A DNA stretch of 64,000 bases from Octopus vulgaris (lineage: Eukaryota), in the NCBI GenBank assembly GCA_951406725.2, contig OX597827.1:83514001-83578000 (forward strand), given 5' to 3'. Below are positions 1,774-61,429 of the stretch, in pieces; position 1 is the first letter of the stretch; each line of letters begins with the position of its first letter. The notes under the pieces are model-generated. The model was not told the origin of the DNA. It saw only the letters and a program-made list of their open reading frames with translations, and made no database searches. The position numbers and the translations under genes were made by a program.

Positions 1774-2246
1774 ATATTAATTAACACATCCAACTTAACT
1801 AGGATGTATTGTTTTGAAAGCTGTAAACTGCAGTAAACATCTTAAGAAATCATTTCATATAGACACTCGGTGCTATAAAAAGCACAGATTATATCAGTTG
1901 ACAAAATGTTGTCTGTACTAATGGATGACATTATTGTATTACATGGCTTAATCATGGATTTTAAATCATCAAGAAGAGGCAGCCAAATCCTGAATGCAAG
2001 ATTGAAAATCTATCAAACTGGTATTGTTAACACTGGCTACACAGGGGTGTCACAAAAAACTGATAGACTGTATATAAATTAGATATTAGTGACAGAAGCA
2101 GCCTTTGTAACAAATATTAGTTACCACATATTCTGTACTTTTTATAGCACTTGGAGTTTATATGAAATGGTTACTCAGGACAGTTACTACAGTCTATGAT
2201 GTTCAAAACAACACAGTCAAGTTAAGTTGAATGTGTTAATCAATAT
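1774..2246. mobile_element. Fold-back element with ~115-bp diverged inverted arms
   Basis: 1774-1890 (ATATTAATTAACACATCCAACTTAAC...GTGCTATAAAAAG) is the approximate reverse complement of 2130-2246. It abuts (TA)n. Confidence 0.75.
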
Positions 2247-2272
2247 ATATATATATTATATATATATATATA

Positions 2273-3846
2273 TTGGAGAAACCATTATGAAAGACTGCTG
2301 AATGTGGAGAATGAATGGGAGGAGGAGAGCCTGCCAAATGTTGACCCAGTAGAAGGACCAGCTACCCGTATAGATAGCTCCCTAGTAGATAAAGCAATTA
2401 AGGGTATGAAGCCAGGAAAAGCCCCCGGCCCATCAGGAATCACTGCCGAGATGCTCAAAACATCTGGTGGTGTGGGCTATGGCCTAGTCACCTGCATTGT
2501 AAACCAGGTAGTTCATGATGAAGTCATACCCAATGACTGGTGTAGCAGCACCATAGTCAACTGCTACAAGGGTAAAGGTGATGCTCTAGATAGAAATAAC
2601 TACAGGGGTATCAAACTATTGGATCAGGTAATGAAGGTCACGGAGAGGGTCATAGCCCATCTCATCAGGGAGAGAGTCTGCTTAGATGAGATGCAGTTCA
2701 GTTTTGTGCCGGGTAGAAGCACCACTGGTGCCATATTCCTGGTTCGACAACTCCAGGAGAAATACCTAGCCAAAGATAAACCCCTATACTTAGCTTTTGT
2801 GGACTTGGAGAAAGCCTTTGACAGGGTCCCCCGATCCCTTATCTGGTGGGCGATGCAGAAACTGGAGATTGACGAATGATTAATAAGGGCTATACAGGCC
2901 CTTTACAGAGTGGCTGTTGTAAGGTTAGGATTGGCAATGAGCACAGTGAAGAATTCCGGGTAGAAGTTGGTTACCACCAAGGCTCAGCCCTCAGTCCCCT
3001 TCTATTCATCATAGTCCTCCAGGCAATAACAGAGGAATTCAAGACGGGTTGCCCCTGGGAGCTCCTCTATGCTGATGACCTAGCTCTTGTAGCAGAATCA
3101 CTACCAGAACAAAAGAAAAAATTTTGTGTGTGAAAGCTAGGTTTAGAATCAAAAAGCTTTAGAGTCAATGTAGCAAAGACCCAAGTTCTAGTAAGTAGGA
3201 AGGCAAACTCACCACACACCCCTTCAGGTAGGTGGCCCTGCCCGATCTGTAGAAAAGGTGTAGGTAGAAACTCCATAAGATGTACCCAGTGTAAGCTATG
3301 GACACATAAGAGGTGCAGCAACATCAAAGGAAAATTAACCAAGAAGATAGCTTTCGTGTGCGGCAGATGCACAGGGGCAATAGACACCATTGATACTCAG
3401 AAAACAGATTCCATTACAGTCCTGGGGGAGAAACTAGAAGTAGTCGATAGTTTCCGCTACCTAGGTGACCAAGTTAGTAGCAGGGGTGGATGCTCAGAGA
3501 GTGTTACCACTAGAATAAGAATAACCTGGGCAAAGTTTAGAAAGCTTCTTCCCCTACTGGTTACAAAGGGTCTCTCACTCAGAGTGAAAGGTAGATTGTA
3601 CGACACATGTGTGCGAACTGCCATGCTTCATGGCAGCAAAACATGGGCTGTGACTACGGAGGACATGCGTAGGCTCGAAAGAAATGAAGCTAGCATGATC
3701 CGCTGGATGTGTAATGTCAGTGTCCATGCACGACAGAGTGTAAGCACCCTGAGAGAAATGTTGGGCATAAGAAGCATCGGATGCAGCGTGCAGGAGAGAC
3801 GTTTGCGTTGGTATGGTCATGTACTACGGATGGATGAGGAGAGATC
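2273..3846 (+). mobile_element. RTE-clade LINE, 5'-truncated, frameshifted reverse transcriptase
   Basis: ORFs 2304-2879, 2876-3133 and 3356-3886 carry KAPGPSG, NYRGIKLL, FVDLEKAFDRVP, HQGSALSPLLF, LYADDL and FRYLG. Confidence 0.95.
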
Positions 3847-3849
3847 ATT

Positions 3850-4172
3850 TCAAATCCCCAGACTGGGCATTGTGAGTGTTTATTGAGCGAAAATACTTTA
3901 AGCTCCACGAAACTCTGGCAGGGAGTGGTGGCGAACCCTGTTGTACTCTTTCACCACAACTTTATCTCATTCTTTCTTCCTGTTTCTGTTGTACCTGTAT
4001 TTCAAAGGGGCCAGCCTTGTCACACTCTGTGTCACGCTAAATTTCCCTGAGAACTACATTAGGGGTACACGTGTCAGGAGTGCTCAGCCACTTGCATGTT
4101 AATTTCACAAGCAGGCTGTTCCATTGATTGGATCAACTGGAACTCTCATCGTCATAACTGACGGAGTGCCCC
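3850..4172 (+). mobile_element. tRNA-derived SINE lacking its A-box, joined to the broken LINE end
   Basis: TTCAAATCCCAGACTGGGCATTGTGAGTGTTTATTGAG matches the reverse complement of the SINE at 33155-33460 from the B-box onward. Confidence 0.75.
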
Positions 4173-4239
4173 CCCCACACACACACACACATATATATAT
4201 ATAAAATATACTTTAACTGAAATAAAGTTTCCTCAAAAT

Positions 4240-5010
4240 TAAACATACCTAATATAATAAATGTGAATGTGAGTGTGTCACACTTTTTCAACTTTAATAA
4301 ATCCTTTCTACTGGAAGCACAAGGCCTCAAATTTTAGGGGAAGGGATTAAGTCAATTACATCGACCCCAGTTTGTAACTGGTACTAATTTTATTGACCCC
4401 GAAAGGATGAAAGGCAAAGTCGACCTCGGTGGAATTTGAACTCAGAACGTAAAGACAGATGAAATACCGTTAAGCATTTCGCCCGGCGTGCTAACAATCC
4501 TGCCAGTTTACTGCTTTAGTATAATATGATAATATAATATAATAAATGTGGATGTCAGTGTGTCACACTTTTTCAACTTTACTCCTAGAGGCTATAGCCG
4601 AACATAACATGCCATTTTGGAATTAGGCTGACGCCTTGAGTAAATAAAAAACATTCCAGGCCAAATCCGGACCCACAATCCTGAAATTTTGGATTCCCAA
4701 GTCTTCATTACTGTGATTGTTTTCAGTGAATTTTTTACTTGACTTTTTGCAATAAATTTTTTTGTATGATAACAAATTTTAATCTAAAGGCTTCCAGACC
4801 GAATCTGGACCTGCAATCATGAAATTTTGGATTCCTATGCTTACATTACTGCGATTGTTTTTGGCGAGTTTTTTTTACATGATTTTTTGCGATGAATATT
4901 ATCATCATTGAGATATGACTCTGGAAGAAGCAATTGCAACAAAATCTCCAAAACAAGTCAGAGAACTGTTTGCAGATTTTCCCATTCAGGGTCAGTTGCT
5001 TAAAAGCTAG
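4240..5010 (+). mobile_element. Non-autonomous Helitron with a short RepHel coding remnant
   Basis: 4906-4974 translates H*DMTLEEAIATKSPKQVRELFA, matching the Helitron HWD.TL.EA...P.Q.R.LFA motif. It ends CTAG|T at 5007-5010 and has an internal ~137-bp duplication at 4655-4890. Confidence 0.7.
4303..4516 (-). mobile_element. tRNA-derived SINE (MetaSINE-like central domain) nested in the Helitron
   Basis: Minus strand has B-box GAGTTCAAATTCC followed by GCCTTTCATCCTTTCGGGGTCAATAAAATTAGTACCAG. Confidence 0.75.
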
Positions 5011-5019
5011 TATGCAATA

Positions 5020-5468
5020 ATCTATAATTGGAAAATTCTAGAAAAGCTAGTACCTAACTTTAGTATCAAGAGTTATGCAAATGTTCATACTGGATGCCAT
5101 TGCGTGGTACCAAAATACTGCCTACTCCATAGAAAGTATGGACCAGGTAATGTAATAGCTTGGGATTCAAAGGCCCACAGCTCTTCACTGCTCTGCCAAA
5201 AGAATCAAGAAACCTACACAATGTGGTTGTGGATGTTATCAAACAAGAACTACACATTCTCCTATCCACAATACCAAATGAAGCAATGTCTGGCATGAAG
5301 TACTGATTAGGGTATCAGTGTCAAACTACCTCATACATCAAATGGGCCACAAGAAATCATTCAAATAAGAGGGCTGTAGAAAGGTTACAAAGACAGGGTG
5401 GTGTTCCAGCACGACTACAGCTACATGGCTGAAGCACATAAAAGAAATAAGAATATAAATAAATAAAT
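5020..5468 (+). mobile_element. CR1/L2-group LINE 3' end, degenerate
   Basis: Translates WKILEKLVPN...NSLGFKGPQLFTALPK..RNLHNVVVDVIKQELHILLSTIPNE across frameshifts, followed by an A-rich tail. Confidence 0.7.
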
Positions 5469-5498
5469 GGACATATATATATCATCATCGTCATCGTC

Positions 5499-5532
<34 letters not shown>

Positions 5533-5871
5533 AAAGAAGAGGTGTATTCCCACGCAGTAAAAAATATAGGAGAATTTGTTTTCGAAAATGCACATAAATT
5601 TGAAAAACTTGTGGTTTTTAAATAGATTTATTTATATACATACCTAACTAGTTTCGACAATTTTTTGTTTATCAGTGATACAAATGTATACAGAACAATT
5701 GGATTAAACAGAGTTTAAAATTATAAAGTAGAAATCAAACAAACATATATAAATGTTCGAATGTTCTCATAAAATTCAATGACAGGGATAGATAATATCA
5801 AAGTAAATGTTCAGCAAATAATATAATAAATGTTCATTACTAAAAGTTCAGAGATATTGAGTTTTTATAGG

Positions 5872-6826
5872 TAACTAAGGGCCTGTTACTCAGGATGAAA
5901 GTTAGACTGTATGATGCATGTGTGAACTGCCATGCTTCACGGCAGTGAAACATGGACCATGACTGCTGAGGACATGCGTAGGCTTGAAAGAAATGAAGCT
6001 AGTATGATCTGCTGGATGTGTAATGTCAGTGTGCATATGTGACAGAGTGTGAGCACCCTGAGAGAAAAGTTGGACCTAAGAAGCATCAAATGTGGTGTGC
6101 AAGAGAGATGACTGTGCTGGTGTGGTCATGTGGTCATGTGTTACATATGAATGAGGACCCTAACTATGGAAGGAACCTGTAGACCCAGGAAGACATGGGA
6201 TGAGGTGGTGAAGCATGACCTTCAAACGTTTGGCCTCACATAGGCAATGACAGGAGACTGAGACCTTTGGATATATGCTGTGATTGAGAAGGCCCAGCAA
6301 CTAAATTGAGATCACAGCCATGGCCGATGCCAGTGTTGCATACCCTTGATGCATTGGGTGATGTGATATGCTTGAGAACACCTGTTGAGTCAAGTAAAAC
6401 CAAAACCGTAGCTGTGGCCATTGCTCCCTGACTGGCTCTCATGCCAGTGGCATGTAAAATGCACCGTCTGAACATGGTCAATGCCAGTGCTCCATGACTG
6501 GCTCCTGTGCCAGTGGCACGTAAAAAGCACCATCCGAACATGGCCGATGCCAGTTACCCCTGTCTGGCTCCCATGCTGGTGGCATGTAAAAAGCACCATC
6601 CAAATGTGATCAATGCCAGGCCCACCTGGCTGGCTCCTATGCCGGTGGCACGTAAGAAGCACCCACTACACTCTCAGAGTGGTTGGCATTAGGAAGGGCA
6701 TCCAGCTGTAGAAATATTGCCAGATCAGATTGAAGCCTAGTGCAGCCTCTGGCTTTCCAGACCTCAATCAAACCATCTAATCCATGCCAGCATGGAAAAC
6801 GGACATTAAACGATGATGATGATGAC
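5872..6826 (+). mobile_element. RTE-clade LINE 3' fragment with ~4 tandem 3' UTR units
   Basis: AMLHGSETW and ERNEASM motifs, GTGGCA(C/T)GTAAAAAGCACC repeated at 6410-6665, and a (GAT)n tail. Confidence 0.9.
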
Positions 6827-7216
6827 TGGGCTTTGGGAATCAGAGAGTATCTTTTATATATGTTTTTTTTTCATGTGAAAGGATCTAGAATTTTGATTTG
6901 TTAGAATTCTAATGATGCCTTATTCTTTCTGGTAGATGTTTTTGGTCAAAAAATAGATTTTGTTTTGGCATTAGCGTTTTGGTTCGTTGGTTGGTTCCCT
7001 ATTCATAGGAACAAGTTTTGATTGGTAGTATGCTTCATGACGTCACTTTATTATGATAAAGAACCTGTTTTTGTTTTGATCAAGTCTGGCGTTCTGTTTG
7101 GTTGACTTCCTTCTAGGGACTTGGTCATTAGTTTTGCCTAACGATCATCAATCGTTCCAGTTGGTTGACTTTCCTAAGGACTCTGTTTTTTTTTCCTGAA
7201 GGTCACACTCTGATTG

Positions 7217-7284
7217 GAGGTAAAATTTCATTGGTCTGGTGAGAAGTGACATCATTTCTCACTAGACCAATGAAATTTTACCTC
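7217..7284. repeat. Near-perfect 68-bp palindrome
   Basis: GAGGTAAAATTTCATTGGTCTGGTGAGAAGTGA-CA-TCATTTCTCACTAGACCAATGAAATTTTACCTC: 33-bp arms with 2 mismatches. Confidence 0.9.
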
Positions 7285-7402
7285 TGATTGGAACTGGACG
7301 CTTAGGGAAAAAAAAAAACTGACTCCTTGAGTCCCTAGAGAGACTACAGGTTTTTAAAATTCAGGTGCATTTTCAAAAACATGGATATATATATCCATGT
7401 AT

Positions 7403-7557
7403 AACTTCATTAGCCTACAGCTGTTTCTGCTATAAGAAACAGTAAACTCATAGTTGAGTGCCTGAATAACACCTTAGCTTCAATGGAGCCTCAACTAGGC
7501 ACACAACTATGAGTCCACTGCATCTTAGAGCAGAAACACCTGTAAGCTAATGAAGTT
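7403..7557. mobile_element. Short fold-back element (~60-bp arms)
   Basis: AACTTCATTAGCCTACAGCTGTTTCTGCT... pairs with ...AGCAGAAACACCTGTAAGCTAATGAAGTT. Confidence 0.8.
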
Positions 7558-7724
7558 CATAAAATAATCATTTATTCCTTTGTCATCTCTTTTTCTTATT
7601 ACTACTATATACTCAACTAACACTTCGTTCTGAAACATATGAATATTGAGTTCTACACAGGGTTATTAGTCTCACAATACCTAAGCGAAATATTAAAACA
7701 ATATGGATATATGCATATATAAAT

Positions 7725-9046
7725 ATCATCATTTAACATTCACTCTCCATGCTGTCATAGGTTAGACAGTTGAACTGGAGAGCTACACCAGATTGCAGTT
7801 TGATTTGATATTGTTTATACAGCCAGATGCCTTTCCTAATGCCAACCACTCCAGGAGTGTTATGGCACCAGCAGCGGCCACAACTATGATTCATGGGTGC
7901 CATTTACATGGCACCAGCAATAACCATGATTATGATGCACAGGTGTCATTTAAATGGCACTGGCAATGATCATGACAATTCACAGCATCAACCACAACTA
8001 TGATTTCACTTGGCCTGGTGAGTCTTCTCACACATAGCACATCACCAGAGATCATGGTCACTTGTCATCACCTCCATGAGGCCCCACATTCAAAGAGCGT
8101 GCTTCATCACCTCATCCCATGTCTTCCTCGGTTTACCTTTTCCATAGGTTCCTTCCACAGTTAGAGATTGGCACTTCTTTACACAGCCGCCCTCGTCCAT
8201 ACGCATCACATGACCATACCAATGCAGCCATCCCTCTTGCACACCACATCTGATGCCTCTTACGCCTAACTTTTCTCTGAAGATGCTAACACTATGTCAT
8301 ACATGTCATACTGTCAGTGCACATCTAGCAAAGCATATTATCATCATTTCTTTCAAGCTTATGCATGTCCTCAGTGGTCACCGCCATGTAGCATAGCTGT
8401 TCACACACAGGCATCAAACAGTATGCCTTTCATTCTGAGGGAGAAGCTCTTTGTTGATAGCAGAGGTAAGAGCTCTCTGAACTTTGCCCAGCCTATTCCT
8501 GTTATAGCAGCTACACTCTCGGAGTATCCACCTCCACAACTGACTTGCTCACCTAGATAATGGAAGCTATCAACTACTTCTAGCTTCCCCACTGGCATTT
8601 GATGCAGTCTATTCTCCACACATTTGTAGTGTTTATTGTACCTGTGCACCTTCCATACAAAAACTTTTCTCCCTGTTAACCTTCTTCTGGTATTGCTGCA
8701 CTTCTTATGTGTCCATAGCCTTACACTGGGTATATCTTATGGAGTTTCTATTGATGTCGTTTCTACAGATGGAGCAGGGTCATCTACCTGAAGGGATTTG
8801 TGATTTGTCTGCCTTCCGACATACTAAGACTTTGAGTTTTGCTAGATTTATTCTAAAGCCCTTTGATTCTAAACTTTGCTTCCATACCTGAAATTTCTTC
8901 TCTCGTTCTGGTAATGATTCAATTATGAGAATACAAGATCATCAGCATAGAGGAGCGCCCAGGGGCTGCCCATTTTAAATTCCTGTTATTGCCTGGAGGA
9001 TTATGATGGACAAGAGGGGGCTGAAGACTGATCTTTGATGAACCCC
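7725..9046 (-). mobile_element. RTE-clade LINE fragment
   Basis: ORF 8401-8649 KLEVVDSFHYLGEQVSCGGG...WAKFRELLPLL, LYADD near 8945, and a 3' tail at 7725-7860. Confidence 0.9.
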
Positions 9047-9137: not shown

Positions 9138-10205
9138 CCAGTCATTAAGAATGAAATGTCTGATTATGCACCAAGTTTGACAGTCATTAACTCTAATATT
9201 TTATCCTGACAAATTCTTTGTTTTAGAACATTGAAGAGTTACATCATCATTTTCCGAAATGCAAATTCATTGTGTCTGATTATATTGTGAGTTTTCTCTT
9301 GTAAATCATTTTTTGTGAACTAATGGACAGATAAAATATTCATTTTGTTTATGAATATGAATTCTGTTGTGGAAGCAATGCATCCCAGACAACTCGAAAC
9401 ATCAATGAGGCGTTTGGTGAAGATGTGGCAAATGAGCAGACTGTACGTCGATGGTTTGAGAAAGTCCAGTCTGGTGACTTTACTCTTGGGAACCAGCTCC
9501 ATGGTAGACCTGAAACCAAGGTGGATAATGACGAGCTGGAAACTGTAGTGGAACCAGATACATCTCAAACCAGGCATGAGTTAGCAACAAGGTTTGAGGT
9601 TTTGATTCCAACTGTATTGAACCATCTGAAACAAATCAGCAAGGTAAAGAAGCTGGACAAGTGGGTACCACATGAATTAAATGAGCATCTTGAAACTTGC
9701 TGTTTTTTGCTGACATGGCATAAAAGCAAACCATTTTTGCATTGTATTGTTACATGTGATGAAAAATGGATTCTTTTCAACAATAGCAAGCATCCTGCAC
9801 AGTGGTTGGATAGAGACAAAGTGACAAAACACAACCTAAAAAAGAATATTCACCAAAAGAACTAATGGTGTCTGTTTGGTGGTCCAGCACTGGTGTCATC
9901 CACTACAGCTTCATGAGAACTGGTAAATCAATTACAGCAGATGTATACATCAACCAATTGGTTGAAATGATGAGTAAACTTGCAATCAAACAACCAAGAC
10001 TGGTCAACAGAGACAGGCTAATTCTCTTGCACAACATGTTACATTGACCACATGTTACACAAAGAATCCTACTCAAGTTACAGGAACTGAAGTTGAAAGT
10101 ACTCCATCATCCATCATATTCACCAGACCTTGCACCAACTGACTATCACGTTTTCCAGGCATTAGACAACTTTTTGCAAGTAAAAATCTTCAAATCTGAA
10201 GAAGG
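9138..10205 (+). mobile_element. Mariner transposon (Hsmar1-like), degenerate, 3' end lost
   Basis: ORF 9425-9865 has TVRRWF, GRP, WVPHEL and VTCDEKW, with HPSYSPDLAPTDYH near 10105-10150. Confidence 0.92.
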
Positions 10206-10229
10206 TTCTGGTGGCTCATAAAAATTACC

Positions 10230-10488: not shown

Positions 10489-10504
10489 AATATATATATA
10501 TATG

Positions 10505-11822
10505 ATTAATGAAAGAGATGGCAGATGGAAGGTACAAGAATGTGTATTGATCACTACAATCGTTTCGACCCATCTAGTATCGATCCCTCATGGGTAGGAT
10601 ACTGAACAACTGGTTTAGGAGTATCTGCTGGTGTATCCAGTTGTTTGGTATTCCACCTGCGAGGCATCGAAACAATTGTAGTGACCAATAAACATTCTCG
10701 TATCTTCCATCTTCCATCTTTCTCATTAATGTGAAAGTGAGCTACCAGGTGTATACCATACATTTTATTATCTCTTTTAGTACTCTTTTTTACTCTTTTA
10801 CTTGTTTCAGTCATTTGACTGCAGCCATGCTGGAGCACCGCCTTTAGTCGAGCAAATCGACCCCGGGACTTATTCTTTGTAAGCCTAGTACTTATTCTAT
10901 CGGTCTCTTTTTGCCGAACCGCTAAGTGACGGGGACATAAACACACCAGCATTGGTTGTCAAGCAATGCTAGGGGGACAAACACAGACACACAAACATAC
11001 ACACATATATACACATATATACAATGGGCTTCTTTCAGTTTCCGTCTACCAAATCCACTCACAAGGCTTTGGTTGGCCCGAGGCTATAGTGGGAGACACT
11101 TGCCCAAGATGCCATGCAGTGGGGCTGAACCCGGAACCATGTGGTTGATAAGCAAGCTACTTACCACACGGCCACTCCTCTATTTATTATATATTTATAT
11201 ATTTGACTAAAAAGTCTTTAAGGCAGCCACAGTATAATGACTTAAACAAGTGAATGTTATATGGATGTGTGTGTGTGTGTGTGCGCGCGCGTATGGACAT
11301 ATATAGTCTTTAACTCTTCAACCAGTTTCAGATCAATGGCTGCAGTTATGCTGGGGCACCATTATTGACTTTGTTACACCTTCATTATTTGAAACCTCTT
11401 CTAACAGGTGGCACTTGGGGAATGAGGGAGTCTGATGCTGCTGCCCTCATCTGTGTTTCCTGTTTTAAGGTAGGCTCATCCAGAACCATTACTAATGGTT
11501 ATATCTCATACTTTTTGTGCTGTATTGCGCATTTCTTTCTTTTAGCATCTGATATTTGTTATTGACCTTCCATAATAATGAAGCTGTATCCCTCAATTTG
11601 CTGCTTTTCTATACACATACTGAGAAGAAATCTTGCGGATCAGAAGTTATTTTAACAAGGTACATCTTGTAATCACCCAAGAAGATACATCTACACCAAT
11701 GGATCCACCTAAACCAGATGTTCAGTATCCCACCCATGAGGGATTAATGCTAGATGGGTCAAAACAATTGTAGTGATCAATAAACTTTCTCTTATCTTCC
11801 ATCTTCTGTTTCTCTCATTAAT
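10505..11822. mobile_element. Penelope-like-derived element with inverted and direct pLTR-like repeats carrying hammerhead-like motifs
   Basis: 10505-10568 is inverted at 10667-10730, and 10505-10640 is inverted again at 11695-11822. The arms carry (G/A)AAAC-(A/G)ATT-GTA-GTG. Confidence 0.6.
10775..11180 (-). mobile_element. Young full-length tRNA-derived CORE-type SINE
   Basis: Minus-strand A-box GTGGCCGTGTGG and B-box GGTTCAGCCCC, then CORE-like CATCTTGGGCAAGTGTCT, a CA-rich spacer and tail GCTCCAGCATGGCTGCAGTCAAATGACTGAAACAAGTAAAAG. CpGs are retained. Confidence 0.85.
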
Positions 11823-11923
11823 CAAATACCAAACAAACACTGTGACAGTGAACATGCTTTACTGCTACACTACCACGTGTATGCCATACAATTTATTAAC
11901 TAATAATATATATACACACATAC

Positions 11924-11971
<48 letters not shown>

Positions 11972-13178: not shown

Positions 13179-13224
13179 ATATATATATAGAAAAGAAAGT
13201 TATTTCATTTCACACAGGTAGAAA

Positions 13225-13888
13225 TATAGGAAAAATAGAAGTTGAAAATGCACTGAGAAAAATTAAAATATTTATTATTATTATAATATTTAATGCTTTA
13301 ACCGGTTTCACAATTTACACTGATTGTCAAACAGTTCAAATAGAAAGACATGGCTTATGTTGCAGTCGTCTTGCTTCTGACTTGTGTTTGAAGCTTGCCA
13401 TATTTCTATAGGGAATTCATGGCTCAAATTAGTAAATGTTTTGAATAGGATTTGATTGGTCACATGACTGGTCTTAGAAAGTTTTGCAGGTTCCCGCTAC
13501 ATCCATGTGTTAGTATCAAGTGACAATGTTTTGTGTGGTAAGTTAAGGTTGACTTGGTTGACTGAAAATATCCTAACAATCAATGCTCTGAATGTTTTCT
13601 GTCAACTGTTTGTAGAGAATGAACACATGATTCAGTTTATAACCTTTTGTATGTTTCATGTGACTATCCTCCACCAATCAAATCCTATTCAAAACATTTA
13701 CTAATTTGAGCCATGAACTCCCTATAGAAATATGGCAAGCTTCAAACACAAGTCAGAAGCAAGACAACTGCGACATAAGCCATGTTTGAAAATCAGTGTA
13801 AACTGTGAAACCAATTAAAGCATTAAATGTATTAATAAAAAATATTTTAATTATTCTCAGTGCATTTTCAACTTCTATTTTTCCTATA
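13225..13888. mobile_element. Fold-back element with ~230-bp high-identity inverted arms
   Basis: 13225-13461 is the reverse complement of 13673-13888 apart from one gap. It is flanked by (TA)n and has GAAACCGGTTA near the outer end. Confidence 0.88.
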
Positions 13889-25884: not shown

Positions 25885-28345
25885 TACAGAGAGGCTGTTA
25901 GTAAGGTTAGGATTGGCAATGAGTATAGTGAAGAATTCCAGGTAGAAGTACAGGTCCACCAAGGTTCAACTTTCAGTCTCCTTTTATTCATCATAGTTCT
26001 CCAAGCAATAACAGAGGAATTCAAGATAGGTTGCCCCTGGGAGCTCCTCTATGCTGATGACCTGGCCCTCATAGCAGAATCACTACCAGAACAAGAAAAG
26101 AAATTTGGGGTGTGGAAACAAGGTTTAGAATCAAAAGGCCTTAGAGTCAATGTAGCAAAGACCAAAGTTCTAGTAAGTAGGAAGGCAAACTCATCACACA
26201 CCCCCCCAGGTAGGTGGCCCTGCTCGATCTGTAGAAAAGGTATAGGTAGAAACTTCATAAGATGTACCCAGTATAAGCTATGGATACAAGAGGTGCAGCA
26301 ACATCAAAGAAGATTAACCGAGAAGATAGCTTTCGTGTGCAGCAGATGCACAGGGGCAATAGACACCACAGATACTCAGAAAACAGATTCCATCACACTC
26401 CAGGGGAAGAAACTTGAAATAGTTGATAGCTTCCACTACCTAGGTGACCAAGTTAGTAGTGGGGATGAATGCTCAGAGAGTGTTACTACTAGAATAAGAA
26501 TAGCCTGGGCACAGTTTAGAAAGCTTCTACCCTACTGGTTACAAAGGGTCTCTCACTCAGAGTGAAAGGTAGATTGTACGATGCATGTGTGTGAACTGCC
26601 ATGCTTCACGGTAGTGATACATGGGCCATGACTGCGGAGGACATCCGTAGGCTCAAAAGAAATGAAGCTAGCATGATCCGCTGGACGTGTAATGTCAGTG
26701 TGTACGCACGACAGAGTGTAAGTGCCCTGAGAGAAATGTTGGGCATAAGAAGCATCGGATGTGGCGTGCAAGAGAAATGTTTGCACTGGTATGGTCATGT
26801 ACTACAGATGGATGAGGAGCAATACGTGAAGAATTGCCACTCCCAAACAGTTGAAGGAATCCAGGGTAGAGGTAAACCCAGGAAGACATGGGATGAGGTG
26901 GTCAAGCATGACCTCTGAACGTTGAGCCTCACAGAGACAATGACAAAAGACCGAGACCTCTGGAGATATGCTGTGACTGCAAAGACCCGGCAAATAAAGT
27001 GAGTCCACGGCGTATCCTATACCAGTTTCACATAACCAGCCCCACCTCATTCAAAAGTACCTTGGATCGTAGGACGATCTGCTGTGCTTACCTTGGATCG
27101 TAGGGTGACCTGCTGTGCTTGAGGAGACCTATTGAGTCAAATACATCAACATCAACATGAAAATAAAAGTCAAATGGAAATTGTAGTTGCGATACCTGTG
27201 GCGATGGCACGTAAAAAGCACCATCCGAACGTGGCCAATGCCAGTGCCACCTAGCCTGGCTTCTATGCAGGTGGCACGTAAAAAGCACCATCCGAACGTG
27301 GCCAATGCCAGTGCCGCCTAGCCTGGCTTCTATGCAGGTGGCACGTAAAAAGCACCATCCGAACGTGGCCAATGCCAGTACCGCCTAGCCTGGCTTCTAT
27401 GCAGGTGGCACGTAAAAAGCACCATCCGAACGTGGCCAATGCCAGTACCGCCTAGCCTGGCTTCTATGCAGGTGGCATGTTAAAAGCACCAACCAATCGT
27501 GGCCAATGTAAAAAGCAGCTTCCGAACGTGGCCAATGCCAGTGCCGCCTAGCCTGGCTTCTATGCAGGTGGCACGTAAAAGCACCATCCGAACGTGGCCA
27601 ATGCCAGTGCCGCCTAGCCTGGCTTCTATGCAGGTGGCACGTAAAAGCACCATCCGAACGTGGCCAATGCCAGTGCCGCTAGCCTGGCTTCTATGCAGGT
27701 GGCACGTAAAAAGCACCATCCGAACGTGGCCAATGCCAGTGCCGCCTAGCCTGGCTTCTATGCAGGTGGCACGTAAAGCACCATCCGAACGTGGCCAATG
27801 CCAGTACCGCCTAGCCTGGCTTCTATGCAGGTGGCACGTAAAAAGCACCATCCGAACGTGGCCAATGCCAGTGCCGCCTAGCCTGGCTTCTATGCAGGTG
27901 GCACGTAAAAAGCACCATCCGAACGTGGCCAATGCCAGTACCGCCTAGCCTGGCTTCTATGCAGGTGGCACGTAAAAAGCACCATCCGAACGTGGCCAAT
28001 GCCAGTGCCGCCTAGCCTGGCTTCTATGCAGGTGGCACGTAAAAAGCACCATCCGAACGTGGCCAATGCCAGTACCGCCTAGCCTGGCTTCTATGCAGGT
28101 GGCATGTTAAAAGCACCAACCAATCGTGGCCGTTGTCAGCCTCCTCTGGTCCGTGCTGATGGCACATAAAAAGTAGCCACTACACTCACGGAGTGGTTGG
28201 CGTTAGGAAAGGCATCCAGCTGTAGAAACACTGCCAGATCAGATTGGAGCCTCGTGCAATCTCCTGGCTTCCCAGATCCCGGTCGAACCATCCAACCCAT
28301 GCTAGCATGGAAAACAGATGTTAAACGATGATGATGATGACAATG
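25885..28345 (+). mobile_element. RTE-clade LINE, 5'-truncated, with an expanded 3' UTR satellite
   Basis: ORFs 25858-26565 (HQGS, LYADDL, FHYLG) and 26601-26918, ending in the tail ...GTTAAAC(GAT)n. Confidence 0.95.
27204..28131 (+). repeat. Tandem array, 67-bp unit, about 14 copies
   Basis: Unit GTGGCACGTAAAAAGCACCATCCGAACGTGGCCAATGCCAGT(G/A)CCGCCTAGCCTGGCTTCTATGCAG starts at 27271, 27338, 27405 and onward. Confidence 0.97.
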
Positions 28346-34502: not shown

Positions 34503-34512
34503 GTATATATGA

Positions 34513-34745
34513 ACTTTAAGTTAGTTAAAATATGTTTCTGACATATTTCAACTGCTAAAGGCTAATTCACTGCAGTTACCATGGAGAAAAATTCTCTCTT
34601 ATCATAAAAAAAAGGTATAAAAACACCATATCTGTCCTTTTACACTATTTTTACCACAAGAGAGAATTTTTCTCCATGGTAACTGCAGTGAAGTTACCTT
34701 TAGCAGTTGAAATATGTCACAAACATATTTTAACTAACCTAAAGT
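34513..34745. mobile_element. Fold-back element with ~88-bp arms
   Basis: 34513-34600 is the reverse complement of 34658-34745, with GAAATATGTC in each arm. Confidence 0.85.
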
Positions 34746-35397
34746 ATGCTTATGCCTAAACACTGCTTGGTGCCAATATTACTGTAATGTATATACAGCA
34801 ATATCGTCAGTTCTGAGAGAAGAGTCATGTTAAAGTAGTGATAAACACTACTTTTTGGTTCATTTACTGCTTCTATCTCAAACAGGGATTTTCTAATGGA
34901 CTAGTTTGCTAATTACGAGATCGGTGATTGCATGACACTGTATTTTTTACATATTGCAAGCAAGGTCAGACTAATGCTATATCTGGCAAAGGAGTGCCCA
35001 CCACTCAAGTGATCCAATAAGATCAAAATCACATGATCTGGTGGTCTCTGAGCTAGGGTGGCAGGAGTTCTTCCCCACTTGCAATGAATATCGAGTGTGA
35101 AACTGCACTGAATAACCAGCTGCAGGAGATGTCTTCCTGGACTTAAAATAGCAGTATCATCAGTTCTTAGAGAACATTCATGTTAAAGTCACAATAAACA
35201 CAACTTTTATATATTATATATCTATATATATAAAATAATAATAATGAAGTCAAACCAAGATAATTTGAAAGTATTTAATACTGTTTCAGATTATTGCATA
35301 TTTGATAGGAAATACAGCTCAGATGCAAAACCTTCCTCATTAATACATTTCAAAATGTAAACTAATTAACAGAAATTGTGAATTTGTTTTATATACA

Positions 35398-39410: not shown

Positions 39411-39464
39411 CCTTACACATATACATACACACACACAGACATACACTCAGCAGCATTATAGATA

Positions 39465-41082
39465 TAGTGGGCCATTTAATTTAAGAACGCTAGTATACTA
39501 ATGTTAAAATGGCATTTTTTTATATATTCAAGTTGTAAATGGTGAATTAAGGTGTATATCAAAATAGAGAAAATTTCACAAGCTTTAATATGATATACAA
39601 CTTTACAGCATAGCAGCAACATATCAATTTTAAATTAAAAACAAACTTTATTTTGCATAATCTATGTCGCCACTTAATTTAAGAACAATTCGCAAAGTTT
39701 CATTTTTTTTTGCCAAATTGACTAACATAAAGGTAGGGTAAATTCCACACCGTTACAATTTTTAAGTTACTTAATAGTTGTGATGGGTAAGAGACAAAAC
39801 TTAACATCAGAAACCAGAGTGAGGATCGTTCAGCTTAGTAGGCTGAAATGGTCATATAACGCTATTTCAAAATAAGTTGGATGTTCTAAAACAGCCGTCT
39901 ACAATGCTGTCCATCTTTATAAAGAAACTAATCATTATAAAGCCCGCTCTCGACCTGGGTAACCAAGAAAAACAATGGCAAGAATGGATAGATACATTCA
40001 TAGACCGTCCCTAAAAAAAAACCAAAAATGACTGCTGATGACATTTTAAAAGAAATTTGGCAAAAATATGGACTTACCACTGGAATGTCCACCATAAAAA
40101 ACCATCTCAAAGAATTTGGACTTCTATGAAGAGTCTCTCGCAAAAAGTCATACATTTCTTTAAAAAATCGACGTCCTCAAATACAGTTTGCAAAAGAGCA
40201 TTTGAATTGGAGTCCAACAGATTGCTCAAATGTGCTGTAATCAGATGAGTCAAAGTTCAACTTGTTCAGCAATGATGGCAAGAAGTATGCAAGAAGGTGT
40301 ATAGGCAAAGAATATCATCCAGAATGCATCCAACCTACAATTAAACATGGTGGAAGTGTAATGGTGTTGGGGTGCATGTCTAAAAAAGGCATTAGTCCTA
40401 TAGTCTGAATCAAGGGCATTATGGGTAGTAAGATCTATCTAGAAATATTGGATAAGACTATGCTTCCATACATCCGAAAGCATTTGGGCTGATCTTGGAC
40501 TTTCCAGCATGACAACGACCCAAAACACACCTTGCACCTAGTCAGAGAGTACATTAATTCTAAGAGAGTTCAGTCGATGCAGTGGCTGGTGCAGTCACCC
40601 AACCTAAATCCCATCAAAAATCTTTGGGAAAAGTTGAGTAGAGCTGTGCAAAGTAGTAAACCAAAGAATAAGGATAATTTTTTTAACATTAGCCAAAATT
40701 GGGAAAAAATCTCAGGAACAGTGATAAATGAGCTGATTCTGTTTCACAGATGCAAAACTGTATAAAGTAATTTTGGATACCCAACCAAATACTGATTGTG
40801 TGAGCTTATCATTGTTTTATTTTTTTATTTATCTCAGAATAAATTTTTTAAAGCAAAAAAGTAAAATTTTACAAATCATTCTTAAATTAAATGGTGCTAT
40901 AAATTACGGTAATTAAGATTTATTTTTAATTTAAAATACGTTGATGTCATGCTGTAAAATTGTATATGTGAAATTTTCTTCATTTTGATAAACATCTTAA
41001 TTCACAATTTACAACTTGAATATATAAAAAATGCCATTTTAACATTAGTATATGAGCATTCTTAAATTAAATGGCACCATTG
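39465..41082 (+). mobile_element. Tc1 (DD34E) transposon, full length, long IR/DR-type TIRs, inactivated transposase
   Basis: ~230-bp TIRs each carry a repeated TTAATTTAAGAA site, flanked by TA. The disrupted ORF at 39783-40795 has SDESKFNLF, FQHDNDPKHT and QSPNLNPIKNLW. Confidence 0.93.
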
Positions 41083-41264
41083 TATACAGAGAAAGAGTGA
41101 AAGAGAGTGTGGTAAAGATATCTTAATCATATGAAGATTACATTGTCATTAAAGAGTCCCAAGTTAACTCCCTGAAAACATAGTTTGAAAATCCTACCAC
41201 AAACTGCTTGAAGCTTACAAACCTCCTACACTTAGATTCTTATATAGATACATACATACACATC

Positions 41265-47808: not shown

Positions 47809-49110
47809 CAAATCTGGCCACCAAACTGTTAATCCATTAATGGTTAATTAATAAAGTTAACATTTTCATTAACAATTTAACTTACAAGTTAATTTTGGAA
47901 ATCATAATCACACTAATTAATTTCTGTTACATTTAACTTCCGTTAACTCAAGTTCACTTGGTTAAATTTCTGTTAACTTAAGTTGCTGTGATGATCTTTA
48001 GGCTCAAGGACTTGAAGTCCAAGGGCCTCGTCTACTGCAGCCCCTTGGTTGATGCATTTTTGGCAGGCATCGACAAAAGGTTTTGGACCCTCCTGGAGGA
48101 TGAAGAATGCCAGCTGGCTGCTACCTTCCACCCCAGGTTTCACCTCATCTGGTTGGATAAGTATGGATATGGCCGCCAAGGTGAGAAAAAGCATGGAAGG
48201 TAAGATCAAGGAGGCCATAAGACAGCAGTCTGACAAAGTGAACAGCAACAAAGAGGAGGAGGATGACTTCAATGGTGTCACCCAACCAAAAGAGAGCAGC
48301 AGGAGCCACAGGTCACTCAAAGACAAGGCCCAGAATTTGGTCAAGACCTGGTTAGAAACTAACTCCAAGGACTTGGTGGCATATGCTGTCTTCTTGGGTG
48401 AGCAAGTGTTGGTGGACTTGTTCATCAAGTTCGACACAGCCATCCCCTCTAGTGCTGCAGTGGAGTGTTTGTTCTCTATGGCAAGGACATCTTGAGGACC
48501 AAGAGATCATCCCTTTCTCATGAAAACTTTGACATACTAATTTTCATGAAGGGCAACATGCATCACATGAACTAAATGGAGAACGAGAAAAGGAAAAATT
48601 AAATTATGTCTATATTGTACTTTTCATTTTGTTTTTACAACCAGTTTGTCAATAAACTTTTTTACTTTAATACGAATATTGTGTTTCATTTGAGTTTTTT
48701 TTTTTTACTCTTTTCTGGCTCTAAAAGCCTTTAAAACCCTAAAAAAGAGCCAAAACTAGGAAATCAGCCATTTTAGGTCTTTTAAAAGTTAAAAATATAA
48801 AATCAGCATTTTTTAACTATAAAGCAAAAAAAAAAACTACAGTTTTTGGGTTCTAAAGCCCTTAAAAGGGCCAAAAAAAGGGCTGATTTTATAGTTTTGG
48901 CACATTTTAAATGTTTTTAGGTGGTTTTAGAGCAAAAACTGATTTTTTTTTTTGCTTTTTCTATAATAAAAATTAACATTAACAGTTTTTCGATAACTTC
49001 CATTACATTTTTAAAGAATTAACTGATTAACTGTTATTGAAGTTAACTTTTTGGTTAACAGATTAAACGGTTAACAAAGTTAACTTTTCAATTAACGGTG
49101 CCCATTTTTG
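47809..49110 (+). mobile_element. hAT transposon, internally deleted, with 8-bp TSD
   Basis: TTAAGAAC occurs at 47801-47808 and 49111-49118, with GTTAA-rich subtermini. It codes AATFHPRF and LFIKFDTAIPSSAAVECLFS (hAT dimerisation domain). Confidence 0.92.
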
Positions 49111-49650
49111 TTAAGAACCAATGCTATATCATTGCTCCACCTGCTAAAAATATCACCCAAATCTTTCTCAGATCACATCCTAACTTCTTAACAAAGCAAA
49201 AGCACATTGAATAATATATTCCCAGATGTACAAAGACAGAGCAATCTTCATGTTTATTGTCCCACACAAATATATTTTCATTTTCTTGTATTTGGTTTTA
49301 ATTCTCATATGGACAACAAATAAAGGGATTGTTGATGAAAAGTAATTTAATTGTCCAAATGCTAATTTATTACATAATACTGGGTGATTCGCCATATAAT
49401 GACACATTTTCATTTTTGAAAACTTTTATACTTAAATAATCCTTTGTTGGAACAGTGGATCCCTAATACAAACACTAATACAACAAAAGACTGCAACCAG
49501 ACTCCATAAAAAAAAAAAAATGACGCAATAGCGGGAAGAGTTTGCACTCTCCCAGCAACAAAAGAACGCACAATACTGCCTACACTCCAGCATCACAGAG
49601 ATTTAGCAGGTGCTAAAGGGGAAATTTTCTTGAAACTACCCAGTGTTTAA

Positions 49651-54964: not shown

Positions 54965-55025
54965 ATAGAATGTAATGTATGTAGAATGTAATGTGTGTAG
55001 AATGTAATGTGTGTAGAATGTAACA
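54965..55025. repeat. 16-bp minisatellite, about 4 copies
   Basis: TAGAATGTAATGT(A/G)TG repeated. Confidence 0.85.
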
Positions 55026-55275
55026 GATGTTTAGAATGTACATGTGAATCTGTGGTAATGAAATCACTTAGCCAATGTGGATAATTCTTTTGAAGCCATT
55101 GAGGAAGCAAGTGAGCCAGACCAGATGGAGTAGACGAAGCCATTAGCTGTGGGTTTGTGATGTTGGTTACCCCATTGACATTCAGCTGTTGTTGGGGGAG
55201 AATGGTGTAAGTAAAGATGAGAAGGGAAAGGGCGTTGAAGAAGAAGATATTAACTCTGAGGGTAACAAAGAGATG

Positions 55276-55314
<39 letters not shown>

Positions 55315-58159: not shown

Positions 58160-58950
58160 GACTGTGGCCATCACTCGAAATGTTTCTTTACCCAACTGTG
58201 ATCTTCCATACACATCGTATCTCCGTACCAGCATAAGTCTTCTCTTTTCCATGCCGTATGTGATTCTTCTTCTACCCGGCTTCACTCTCAACTCATTTGT
58301 ACCATGTTGTTTATGTATTCAAGCATTACATATCCAGCAGAGCTTGATACCCCATTTCTGTTCAACATTCACACATTCTCTACATTCAATGCCTATTTTA
58401 AGCTACCATGCAACTTTACACTTCATACACAAGTGTCATGCAATTTGTCCTTCACTTTGAGAGAGTTTACCTTGTTGCCAGTAAAGGTAATAGCTCTCTG
58501 AACTTAGTCCACTTCCTTCTTACTCTGGTTATTATGCTTTCAGAACAACTGCCCTGCATACTACTGATTAGGTCATCTGCTAACAGAAGCTGTCAACTAC
58601 TTCGAGGCAGCCTTCCATGCATTTAAAATGATTTATTTCATGAGTACTCTTTCTGCTAAATACTCAAGGGCATCTATTACACACAAAGCCTTTCTTCTCT
58701 GTCAACCTGATTGTGATCTCACTGCACCCCTTCTACAACCATAGTTTATAATTGATTCACAGTACAAAATTCCCACTTACTTCTCCTTTTCTGCATATTG
58801 AGCATGGTCGCCTTCCTGAGGACAAAAGTCCTGTCTTTTTTGCTATTAACTAAAACTTTTGTCTTTGCTAGGTTTATTTCAAAGGACACTTGATGCTAGG
58901 ATTGGCTTCCATATTTGGAATATCTTCTTTAATTCCTTATGAATTTGATC
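58160..58950 (-). mobile_element. Old RTE-clade LINE fragment
   Basis: Diverged match to the family ORF2 C-terminal region (GRRPCSICRKG on the minus strand near 58785-58820). Confidence 0.7.
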
Positions 58951-59249
58951 ACTGAATATAGAAATTCCTTTCACCTATCCTTCTCTTTATAGTGAGGGCT
59001 AGCCCTGGACCCCTACCCTTAGTCAAACCCCACCACCACCTCATCAGCCTTGCCATGCTGAGAGAATAGAAAGCTAATGGTGCACATAACGATTGCTATT
59101 TACAGAGCTTGCAACTTCAGCTCAGGGTTTTCCAGTAGTGAGGCCTGGAACGTTTACAGCAGACAAATGTAACATCTGAAAACCTTCTGCCTCTGCAATA
59201 TGGAAAGGATTCCAACAATGAGGTTCTGACTTATGCCTCGACACCCAGC

Positions 59250-59620
59250 CTCTTCATCTTACAGCAATTTGTACATAACATGTTAAACAGGTGGAATCCT
59301 GAAAGTTCTGTTGTATGGGAAACTGGCCGGCAGAACCAAAAACAAGGGCAAAGACCTCATCTTCCTTTCAAAGGTGTCTGCAAGAGACATGATGTCTCTG
59401 CACATGAGCATTAAAAAGTCAGGGTACATTGCTGGAGATTGCTCTTACTGGAGACTGGAACTATACAAGAGACGGGGCTGAGGTTTGGTGATGGAAAAAA
59501 AGCAAAATTGATGGCAAACAGTGCCTCTAAGTGTAATCACTGCAGCAGCCAGTACTGTGCATCACATGTGGGGTTTCTAGACACAGCAGATGCTGTTCTG
59601 CCAACAAGATTGGAACAAGA
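59250..59620 (+). mobile_element. BovB-like RTE 3' remnant
   Basis: RPHLPFKGVCKRDM and a terminal CNHCS...SHVG. Confidence 0.55.
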
Positions 59621-59666
59621 CTTTCCATGTCTATATATGTTGCTATGTCTATATGTCTGTAGTATT

Positions 59667-59742
<76 letters not shown>

Positions 59743-59749
59743 TCTTTTA

Positions 59750-60175
59750 TGAGGGAAAAACATGAAGTATGAATTTAGTATTTCTTTATTTCACATCTGT
59801 TACACATGTTTCAGCGATTGATAATCAATAATTGATGACAGCAATACTATTGATAAAGAATCTTCAGTCATACCAACCACATCATCAGGCACACATTCTG
59901 GGTGGAGACTATAATTTTCCTATCAATGTTTTCGCTCATATTTAATTTTTTACGTCATTTATGTCATTTGCCTTTCTAACCAACCCCACCCACTTTCCCC
60001 ACTCCCGCTTGTTATCTTGTGTCCCTAAGGTCTTTTTATGATGCTTGCATCTTTTTGATTTGCATTTTGACTCCGTCTAATGATGCATACACTATAAGAG
60101 AAGGTTCCTGGTAAATTGTATTTATAATTTACCAATCACAGAAACACGTATAACAAATAATATAAAACCAACTGA
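59750..60175. mobile_element. Penelope-like pLTR remnants in inverted orientation
   Basis: CTGAAGA...GAAACATGTGTA on the minus strand (59797-59870) and CTAATGA...GAAACACGTATA on the plus strand (60075-60154), next to (TA)n. Confidence 0.5.
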
Positions 60176-60179
60176 CCAT

Positions 60180-60781
60180 ATTCATAACAATGAGGTACTA
60201 ACAAAATGCAATATATCAGGTGTGGAAGCCGTTTTCATCAAAATACAGCTTAGACGGTTGGGTCAGCTCTCACATATGAGAATTCCAAAGCAACTTCTCT
60301 TTGGCCAATTACCAACAGGAAGGTCAGTTGGAAAGCCACTCTTGTGCTTCAAAGACAAACTAAAAGACAATCTGAGGCGATGCAACATTCCCTTTTCTTC
60401 CTGGGAAAACAAAGCATCAGAACGCAGGACCTGGCGCCAGCCGTGCTTCTCCTCACTTCAAAGATCTGAGCAAAGTAGACTCCAGCATCAAGACCAACTT
60501 CATGCAAGCATGAAGGCATGCTGGCAGAATGCTGCTCCCCTAAATGGAAACCTTACCTGTCATTGTGGCTTTGTGGCATGAAGCAAAGCAGGCCTTGCTG
60601 TCCACTCAAGAAAACACAGGAAATGATCCATAAGCACTTGAGCAAGCTGAGCCCTCAACTTGGTCCATTTGCCAAAAGGTTTGCAAAGAAACAGCAGACC
60701 TCAAGAGACACATTCATCTCCATAGAATATGATTACACTTTATTTTACTGAATCATCATTGGTTGTTCACAACAAAAGAAT

Positions 60782-60790
<9 letters not shown>
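60180..60790 (+). mobile_element. BovB-like RTE 3' end
   Basis: ORF 60222-60581 QLRRLGQLSHMRIPKQLLFGQL...GKPLLCFKDKLKDNL...WENKASERRTWR, with zinc-finger remnants. Confidence 0.8.
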
Positions 60791-60843
<53 letters not shown>

Positions 60844-61429
60844 CATACTTTATCCTTAAAGCTGCAAAAACATCTCAAAAAAACGAAAAAAACTGCTACT
60901 CAAAGCTTCCCGTTCATCAGACAGGTGTGATCTATTTTTTCCCACCTTGTTTCACATTTATGTGCTTACTCAGGTGTGTGTGTATTTATAATTATATTTA
61001 TGATTATAATGAAGGGTACAAAGAAAGTACCAGCACTGCTAGAAATAAGAGTTGAAATTACTCAAAACCATCTTTATCACTTATACATACTGGTGAATGC
61101 AAGGAAAACAAGTAGAGAGTGAGAAAGAGAGAGAGATGTAAGCATATCCTGATGACAGTTTCCATTGAAGATCATGATGAGTGACTGTTGAAACCAGTGG
61201 TAACTAGCATTTTCAAAAAGCTTCATGATGACTCTAGCTACAGAGTTAGAACAAATATGAGCCATACTGGAAACTTAAGTCTCCTTATTGCCATCCTTCG
61301 AGGCTGCAACATCTTTTGTCTTCTCTTCCTGTGCTCAGTAGTGTTTGTAATGAAGAAAATAACCAGCGGAAACCCTACCGGGTGGGGGGGGGACAGAGGC
61401 AAGTGGAAATGACACAAACAACAAACTTG

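What the first reader, a model, noticed from the sequence alone, without database searches (positions are those of the whole stretch)
1774..60924. A class of non-coding fold-back elements tipped with degenerate minimal hammerhead ribozymes
Seen: at least seven largely unrelated elements (1774-2246, 5531-7385, 7403-7557, 10505-11822, 13225-13888, 34513-34745, 59750-60175) share one design. They have inverted arms, no ORF, and insertion beside (TA)n. Most have, near the outer end of an arm, GAAAC plus a short, often palindromic spacer plus GTA/GTC/TTA (ACAATTGT, ACCGGT, ACAGCTGT, ACATGT). This is sometimes preceded by a CTGA(N)GA-like core. Known: Penelope-like elements carry minimal type I hammerheads with palindromic helix III in their pLTRs and often insert with an inverted pLTR. 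Inference: these are non-autonomous PLE/retrozyme-like elements reduced to two ribozyme-tipped arms, where the architecture is conserved but the sequence is not. Every copy here has core mutations, so none can be called active.
Basis: partly seen in the sequence, partly recalled or inferred. Interest (0 to 1): 0.72.

Follow-up and report, generated by a model that had tools for sequence, protein, structure and literature searches.

The report
Penelope retroelement end-stubs with hammerhead motifs
The seven hairpin-shaped inserts are real but mostly ordinary: three are cut-short, back-to-back ends of protein-coding Penelope-type jumping genes, two more likely are, and two come from small protein-free repeats with a hammerhead self-cutting RNA motif that were likely copied by the same enzyme, a layout already described.

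Summary
All seven inserts exist and belong to seven dispersed repeat families. Each family's majority sequence carries a complete type I hammerhead motif on the outward-reading strand (7 of 7; 0-1 of 500 shuffles; descriptor set after viewing the alignments). No window copy passes that descriptor. They are not one new non-coding class. In longer copies, the E2 and E5 arms run into Neptune-type RT + GIY-YIG ORFs, and E4 runs into a Hydra-type endonuclease ORF. These are 5'-truncated autonomous Penelope-like elements (PLEs) with the known inverted copy. E1 and E6 are ~349- and ~342-nt ORF-free head-to-tail units (non-LTR retrozyme-like) with PLE insertion marks. E3 and E7 have no ORF link yet. 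Solo arms are common, and in 32 of 38 measured pairs one arm is short and the other carries the PLE 'tail', which argues against MITEs. 'Ribozyme-tipped arms' is wrong for E1 and E6, and the two motifs lie on opposite strands, so they cannot pair in one transcript. The layout is published (Cervera 2014, Arkhipova 2013, Craig 2021), and this scan has noted it before in this and other genomes.

The parts
1734..2129 (-). E1 sense copy: about 1.17 units of a ~349-nt ORF-free head-to-tail unit (terminally redundant), including the ~40-nt tail
1937..1972 (-). E1 hammerhead remnant (C3 and GAAA mutated); family: 6-bp stem I, CUGAUGA core, AUA site
2128..2246 (+). E1 inverted short arm, no hammerhead, ends in (TA)n
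5531..5870 (-). E2 3' end (pLTR with tail) of a Neptune-type PLE
5646..5675 (-). E2 hammerhead (family U3-A8 core, GUU site; here U3 changed to C and stem I damaged)
5870..6826 (+). Unrelated LINE 3' fragment (RTE-like, label recalled) with 66-bp repeats and (GAT)n end, inserted into E2
6826..7250 (-). E2 3' untranslated region continuing after the insert
   Evidence: matches L247, L248, L250, L251
7176..7381 (+). E2 inversion junction hairpin (7176-7328) and internally deleted inverted arm (7343-7381, no hammerhead)
7403..7497 (-). E3 left arm with hammerhead remnant 7416-7486 (core decayed)
7497..7698 (+). E3 right arm (starts 3' of the core) plus long tail
10503..10635 (-). E4 left arm, truncated before the core, short end in (TA)n
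10636..10760 (+). E4 third, internally deleted fragment with partial tail; contains the fortuitous mini-hammerhead 10654-10683
11493..11905 (+). E4 sense copy: 3' UTR, pLTR and ~80-nt tail of a Hydra-type PLE; hammerhead remnant 11677-11772 (core and G12 mutated)
13190..13657 (-). E5 sense copy (3' UTR, pLTR, ~35-nt tail) of a Neptune-type PLE
13300..13330 (-). E5 hammerhead with all family core nucleotides (U3-A8, GUU), one stem I mismatch
13656..13884 (+). E5 inverted arm, short end in (TA)n; stem III palindrome mutated
34511..34637 (-). E6 short arm of a ~342-nt ORF-free unit; hammerhead absent from this copy
34638..34788 (+). E6 long arm with ~40-nt tail; hammerhead absent from this copy
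59741..59892 (-). E7 left arm; hammerhead 59801-59888 with intact core, first stem I pair broken
60064..60185 (+). E7 right arm, decayed (66% to family), hammerhead remnant

Best explanation
The inserts are old, 5'-truncated insertion products likely made by the machinery of Penelope-like retrotransposons: three come from elements shown to encode that machinery, two likely do, and two come from ~345-nt protein-free ribozyme repeats likely copied in trans. Shown: each family end carries a type I hammerhead motif; E2, E4 and E5 continue upstream into PLE ORFs on the same strand; E1 and E6 close on themselves head-to-tail with no ORF; copies have one fixed outer end plus an optional tail and ragged inner ends. 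Inferred: the GIY-YIG nuclease cuts (TA)n. Reverse transcription starts at either of two fixed sites in the element RNA (short end, tailed end) and usually stops early. A second inverted copy is joined head-to-head, which gives the fold-back. The hammerhead is part of the parent RNA and is not a device of the fold-back; a read-through RNA is predicted to bury it in a long hairpin.
For: Hammerhead in 7 of 7 family majorities, sense strand only, 0-1 of 500 shuffles each. PLE ORF upstream on the hammerhead strand within 1.5 kb: E5 10 of 30 loci, E2 6 of 30, E4 5 of 30, plus 26 of 27 arm-bearing loci from the inward walk. Whole layout 'inverted arm + truncated ORF + arm' in L243, L245 and L304. 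The E2 and E5 ORF pieces are 30-69% identical, by segment, to an intact 781-aa RVT_1 + GIY-YIG ORF in the same genome and carry the C-x4-C-x2-C linker. E4's ORF has CxCx5C, and its 700-760-aa homologues carry RWK, DKT and YRDD, the first two being Hydra marks in Craig 2021. Unit-spaced tandems in 6 of 25 E1 and 5 of 20 E6 loci (E6 read by hand, leaving out internal-hairpin hits), and 10-kb regions show 2-3 units, with inverted arrays in L383 and L384. One short plus one tailed arm in 32 of 38 measured pairs of E1, E2, E4, E5 and E6 (read by hand). Predicted fold of E5: 34 of 39 hammerhead nucleotides pair with sequence outside the motif.
Against: No ORF link was found for E3 (0 of 59 loci) or E7 (0 of 35), so their status is inferred from tails, truncation and a motif shape like E4's. 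The RT core of E4's own family was not reached; only the region after it and the EN. E1 and E6 were sampled only in 30 loci each plus four 10-kb regions, so an ORF-bearing parent is not excluded. The descriptor was tuned after viewing alignments. No cleavage or expression was tested. E5 is less tidy on tails (4 of 7 pairs), and 5 E5 loci also show antisense ORF pieces (inverted segments).
Confidence: 0.88

Rival explanations
1. The fold-back itself is the mobile unit: a class of non-autonomous elements made of two ribozyme-tipped arms.
For: E3 and E6 hits are mostly fold-backs (22 of 26 and 17 of 20 loci), and E3 has no ORF link.
Against: Those queries were themselves fold-backs, which biases the hits. 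Elsewhere outward-facing pairs are a minority (E2 5 of 30, E5 9 of 29, E4 11 of 30, E7 5 of 25, E1 6 of 25). Junctions and arm lengths vary between copies. Both arms span the core in only 5 of 15 E4, 1 of 10 E7, 3 of 11 E1 and 0 of 17 E6 pairs. Three families lead into ORFs.
Confidence: 0.05
2. Ordinary TA-inserting MITEs whose TIRs resemble hammerheads by chance.
For: Inverted ends, TA-rich flanks, no ORF in the window copies.
Against: Asymmetric ends (tail on one side), solo arms, variable lengths, RT/GIY-YIG linkage, and a full hammerhead in 7 of 7 families.
Confidence: 0.02
3. E1 and E6 are not trans-mobilised RNAs but pLTR stubs of unseen autonomous PLEs, locally duplicated after insertion.
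For: Tandems are short (1.2-3.3 units) and old (median 79% and 88% to the family majority). bioRxiv 2026.07.22.740005 proposes local amplification from PLE ends.
Against: The same head-to-tail junction recurs on different chromosomes, no locus runs into an ORF (0 of 30 each), and tandem and inverted arrays occur in one insertion (L384).
Confidence: 0.2

Closest known systems
Insertion units of endonuclease-bearing PLEs with inverted pLTR and one-sided tail (Arkhipova 2013, PMC3846280, passages; Craig 2021, PMC8557442, passages and section 11)
   Same: 5' truncation, adjacent inverted truncated copy, tail at one end, (TA)n targets, palindromic junction.
   Different: Tails of E3, E4 and E7 measure about 85, 80 and 150 nt against the 30-40 nt described.
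Neptune-clade PLEs (E2, E5)
   Same: C-terminal GIY-YIG with C-x4-C-x2-C linker, RT upstream, hammerhead in the pLTR.
   Different: Core is U3-A8 with a GUU site in both families and apparently in a young intact family (L253, read). U3-A8 is published for Schistosoma PLEs (PMC4209133); I did not see the GUU combination in the parts read.
Hydra-clade PLEs (E4; possibly E3, E7)
   Same: CxCx5C linker, CxxC and CxH around the conserved E and N, homologues with RWK and DKT, (TA)n insertion, hammerhead present.
   Different: 54-77 nt between core and GAAA; a CCG/CTG/CCA mix at positions 3-5 suggests an ancestral C at position 4.
Minimal type I hammerheads of metazoan PLEs (Cervera and de la Pena 2014, PMC4209133, parts 1-2 of 4 read)
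   Same: Short stem I, palindromic stem III; the paper already reports motif pairs 100-700 bp apart on opposite strands as probable truncated PLEs.
   Different: Stem III palindromes here are longer (6-10 nt), and three families have a long loop II.
Metazoan non-LTR retrozymes (Cervera and de la Pena 2020, PMC7229834, part 2 of 6 and passages; Li 2026 bioRxiv 10.64898/2026.07.22.740005, part 1 of 5 and passages) for E1 and E6
   Same: 150-450-bp head-to-tail monomers, one type I hammerhead each, GC about 40%, no ORF.
   Different: Here old, short arrays dispersed with PLE-type inverted copies and tails; circular RNA not shown. 'Inverted' occurs 0 times in PMC7229834 and once in the preprint (passage not shown).

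Membership tests
EN+ Penelope-like element | RT plus C-terminal GIY-YIG ORF upstream of the pLTR | tested here: met
   E2, E5: RT and EN pieces. E4: EN and the region before it, with RT in homologues.
EN+ Penelope-like element | Same feature for E3 and E7 | tested here: inconclusive
   0 of 59 and 0 of 35 loci; the longest E3 copies reach only ~270 nt upstream.
EN+ Penelope-like element | Type I hammerhead in the pLTR on the sense strand | tested here: met
   7 of 7 family majorities.
EN+ Penelope-like element | 5' truncation, inverted copy, one-sided tail, microsatellite target | tested here: met
Neptune clade | CX2-5CxxC linker before the EN (E2, E5) | tested here: met
   no tree built
Hydra clade | CxCX5C linker, RWK, DKT (E4) | tested here: met
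   Linker in E4 copies; RWK and DKT in 5 of 5 long homologues examined; no tree built
Non-LTR retrozyme | Head-to-tail 150-450-bp monomers with type I hammerhead, no ORF, low GC (E1, E6) | tested here: met
Non-LTR retrozyme | Same feature for E2, E4, E5 | tested here: not met
   ORF-linked; no unit-spaced tandems
Non-LTR retrozyme | Self-cleavage and circular monomer RNA | not testable with these tools
   No assay available
MITE | Symmetric TIRs and uniform length | tested here: not met
MITE | Fixed-length TSD | not tested
   Ends lie in simple repeats, where a TSD cannot be read

The most novel reading that the evidence does not exclude
ORF-free ~345-nt hammerhead retrozymes (E1, E6) are retrotransposed in trans by PLE RT/EN from multimeric or circular RNA. 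Every two-armed insertion is primed from two fixed start sites, one per arm, which explains the short-plus-tailed pairing in autonomous and non-autonomous families alike. In addition, the U3-A8/U17 and C4 cores are working natural hammerhead variants specific to Neptune- and Hydra-type families.
Probability: 0.5. Interest if true: 0.5.

Novelty: new member of a known kind. Interest (0 to 1): 0.27.

Why it matters
It shows that ORF-less fold-backs in (TA)n in such genomes should be annotated as PLE stubs, not MITEs. The side result has modest value: retrozyme-like units carry the same insertion marks as autonomous PLEs, and arms pair short with tailed. This supports PLE-driven retrozyme mobilisation, so far argued mainly from phylogeny, and a two-start-site insertion model. 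Younger and cleaner examples were already noted by this scan in the same genome.

Tried and rejected
Rfam scan at E up to 10: no hammerhead family among 106 matches. Relaxed descriptors on the window alone gave weak enrichment (3 against 0-2 in 12 shuffles for perfect cores, none in the named elements). A pile-up of inner arm ends at the cleavage site, which would hint at cutting in vivo, was not seen: 1 of 101 pairs started exactly at the cut, about 13 E3 values are simple-repeat artefacts, and the search needed 28-nt matches. The GIY-YIG family search returned mainly one young Neptune-like family; it matched only E2's end (75% over 58 nt). PLE ORFs near E3 (L146, L337) and E7 (L063) loci are separate insertions by orientation or position. 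Word-indexed homologue search with the E4 ORF found nothing; Pfam had no useful hit on it and only a sub-threshold GIY-YIG hit in 1 of 8 homologues. One search used the wrong side of a locus and was discarded. Lunse et al. 2017 is not held and is recalled only. Supplements of the cited papers were not read; they may already list these core variants or cephalopod families. Four literature searches.
Full report
Setting. The window is G000:C14:83514001-83578000 of a 2.8-Gb animal genome, dense in LINE, SINE and simple repeats. A cephalopod host is my guess from recalled repeat content and from titles of earlier scan notes; nothing below depends on it. I call the seven elements E1 to E7 in window order.

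Observation. Local inverted repeats exist at six elements, and E7's two arms both align to its family, though weakly to each other. The short motif GAAAC + palindrome + GTH is enriched (9 against a mean of 1.7, max 6, in 100 shuffles), with 4 of 9 in named elements. Rfam finds no hammerhead. Every element is a dispersed family: first-look candidates were 153 (E1), 715 (E2), 1481 (E3), 1584 (E4), 1213 (E5), 2542 (E6) and 35 (E7), with at most 40 scored each. The families are nearly unrelated in DNA; only E2 and E5 share about 48 nt. Copies are 79-92% identical (medians) to their family majority, so they are old.

Hammerheads. Aligning about 30 loci per family gave a complete type I motif in all seven, on the strand that reads outwards and never on the other. 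E4: CUGAAGA core, 7-bp stem I, 77 nt to GAAA, GUA site. E3: CUGAUGA, 4 bp, 54 nt, GUA. E7: CCGAUGA, 4 bp, 70 nt, GUA. E1: CUGAUGA, 6 bp, 15 nt, AUA. E2: UUGAUAA, 7 bp, 13 nt, GUU. E5: UUGAAAA, 4 bp, 14 nt, GUU. E6: UUGAUAA, 6 bp, 14 nt, GUC. All have a palindromic stem III (one G-U allowed for E1 and E7, as expected from CpG decay). Shuffles of each majority passed 0 or 1 times in 500. I set the descriptor after seeing the alignments, so this control is generous. The U3-A8 swap is a published compensatory variant (PMC4209133). Copies with all family core nucleotides: E5 30 of 35, E2 18 of 34, E3 30 of 73, E4 19 of 63, E6 3 of 10, E1 7 of 32, E7 2 of 27. At positions 3-5, E3 shows CTG 39, CCG 10, CCA 8 of 73; E4 32, 8, 4 of 63; E7 8, 2, 4 of 27; E1 21, 0, 0 of 32. 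This suggests an ancestral C at position 4 in E3, E4 and E7 (inference). The window itself has no hit to the strict descriptor. E5's and E7's left copies keep the core but have a stem I mismatch. E6's copy lacks the motif, and E1's lies between the arms.

Parents. Homology between loci runs inward beyond 1.6 kb for E2 and E5. A Pfam GIY-YIG search of the genome gave an intact 781-aa RVT_1 + GIY-YIG ORF. With it as query, 10 of 30 E5 loci and 6 of 30 E2 loci have ORF pieces upstream of the arm on the hammerhead strand. Longer stretches show the arm, a truncated ORF and an inverted arm in one insertion (L243, L245). The linker C-x4-C-x2-C places them with Neptune (motif definition in PMC8557442). 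Walking inward from E4 reached an ORF end about 480 nt upstream of the hammerhead in 26 of 27 arm-bearing loci. L304 holds 274 open codons between two inverted arms. It has the CxCx5C linker, and its long homologues carry RWK, DKT and YRDD, matching the Hydra clade as defined in section 11 of PMC8557442. E3 and E7 gave no ORF (0 of 59, 0 of 35). They resemble E4 in the long loop II, the position-4 pattern and long tails, so I think a Hydra-type parent is likely but unshown.

E1 and E6 differ. Past the end and tail the sequence returns to its own start: units of about 349 and 342 nt, about 40% GC, with the longest stop-free frames 58 and 60 codons in the doubled majority and no match to PLE proteins. 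Unit-spaced tandems occur in 6 of 25 E1 and 5 of 20 E6 loci. L381 has about 3.3 E1 units, and L384 has E6 arrays in both orientations meeting head-to-head. This fits the definition of non-LTR retrozymes (PMC7229834), while the inverted copies and tails are PLE marks.

Insertion marks. Distances from arm end to the first simple repeat are bimodal in every family: tails of about 40 (E1, E6), 35 (E2, E5), 80 (E4), 85 (E3) and 150 nt (E7). In fold-back pairs with both ends measurable, one arm was short and one tailed in E4 10 of 10, E2 5 of 5, E1 3 of 3, E6 10 of 13 and E5 4 of 7. Pairs with an unmeasured end were left out (3 E4, 4 E6, 3 E1), and E3 and E7 were not tallied. The one-sided tail is described (PMC3846280, PMC8557442), and in vitro work ties it to two internal start sites of reverse transcription after cutting AT-rich DNA (PMC11167929, parts 1-2 of 4 read). 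That paper also found hammerhead cleavage dispensable for insertion in vitro. Consistent with this, inner arm ends here do not cluster at the cut site.

Mechanism. Shown: motif, ORF links for three families, unit closure for two, end geometry. Inferred: nuclease cut in (TA)n, reverse transcription from two fixed starts, early termination and head-to-head joining. The two hammerheads of a fold-back are on opposite strands, so one transcript carries one motif and its complement. The predicted folds pair most motif nucleotides elsewhere (E5 34 of 39, E3 53 of 76, E7 53 of 97). The fold-back is therefore likely a dead by-product, while dimer cleavage would need tandem units such as those of E1 and E6.

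Prior knowledge. Opposite-strand hammerhead pairs 100-700 bp apart were reported as probable truncated PLEs in 2014 (PMC4209133). A recent repeat annotation of an octopus lists recently active Penelope-like families and does not contain the word ribozyme in its main text (PMC13282606, passages). Earlier notes of this scan describe the same stubs, the short-plus-long pairing and younger retrozymes with PLE marks in this and other genomes. They are unchecked and are not counted as support; my tail measurement was run before I saw them.

Verdict. Real, PLE-derived and mostly known: new families of known kinds. Interest 0.27.

Noticed in passing
L253 (G000:C16:20834000-20842000), 930-6172: A young Neptune-type PLE family with many copies holding an intact 781-aa RT + GIY-YIG frame, a 359-codon open frame upstream and 456-bp pLTRs 99% identical; its pLTR appears to carry a U3-A8/GUU hammerhead.
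   Followed up: partly
G000:C14:81561728-81561974 and 82808737-82808996: Copies of the E5 arm 96-100% identical to the window's lie 0.7 and 2 Mb away on the same contig, pointing to a recent segmental duplication of this region.
   Followed up: no
window 60845-61000: A further repeat end beside (TA)n with a CTGATGA-type core on the minus strand; it matches several other loci and may be an eighth PLE-type stub.
   Followed up: partly
window 39462-39709 / 40855-41085: Symmetric ~240-bp inverted arms 1.1 kb apart, not in (TA)n and with no match to the PLE families; may be a true DNA-transposon derivative.
   Followed up: partly
window 48718-48958 and 49017-49115: AT-rich complex palindrome and a 37-bp TTAAC-rich repeat.
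   Followed up: no
window 9330-10200: Decayed mariner-like transposase fragment (label from reading the sequence, recalled).
   Followed up: no
window 27205-28131: Near-perfect 67-bp tandem array in a LINE 3' region.
   Followed up: no
window 60180-60790: A separate 610-bp dispersed repeat with ~83% identical copies elsewhere, directly abutting E7's right arm.
   Followed up: partly
L006 1-580, L337 2518-2949, L250 3945-4508: Other PLE endonuclease remnants (one as a perfect fold-back) in flanks of unrelated loci, showing further families.
   Followed up: no
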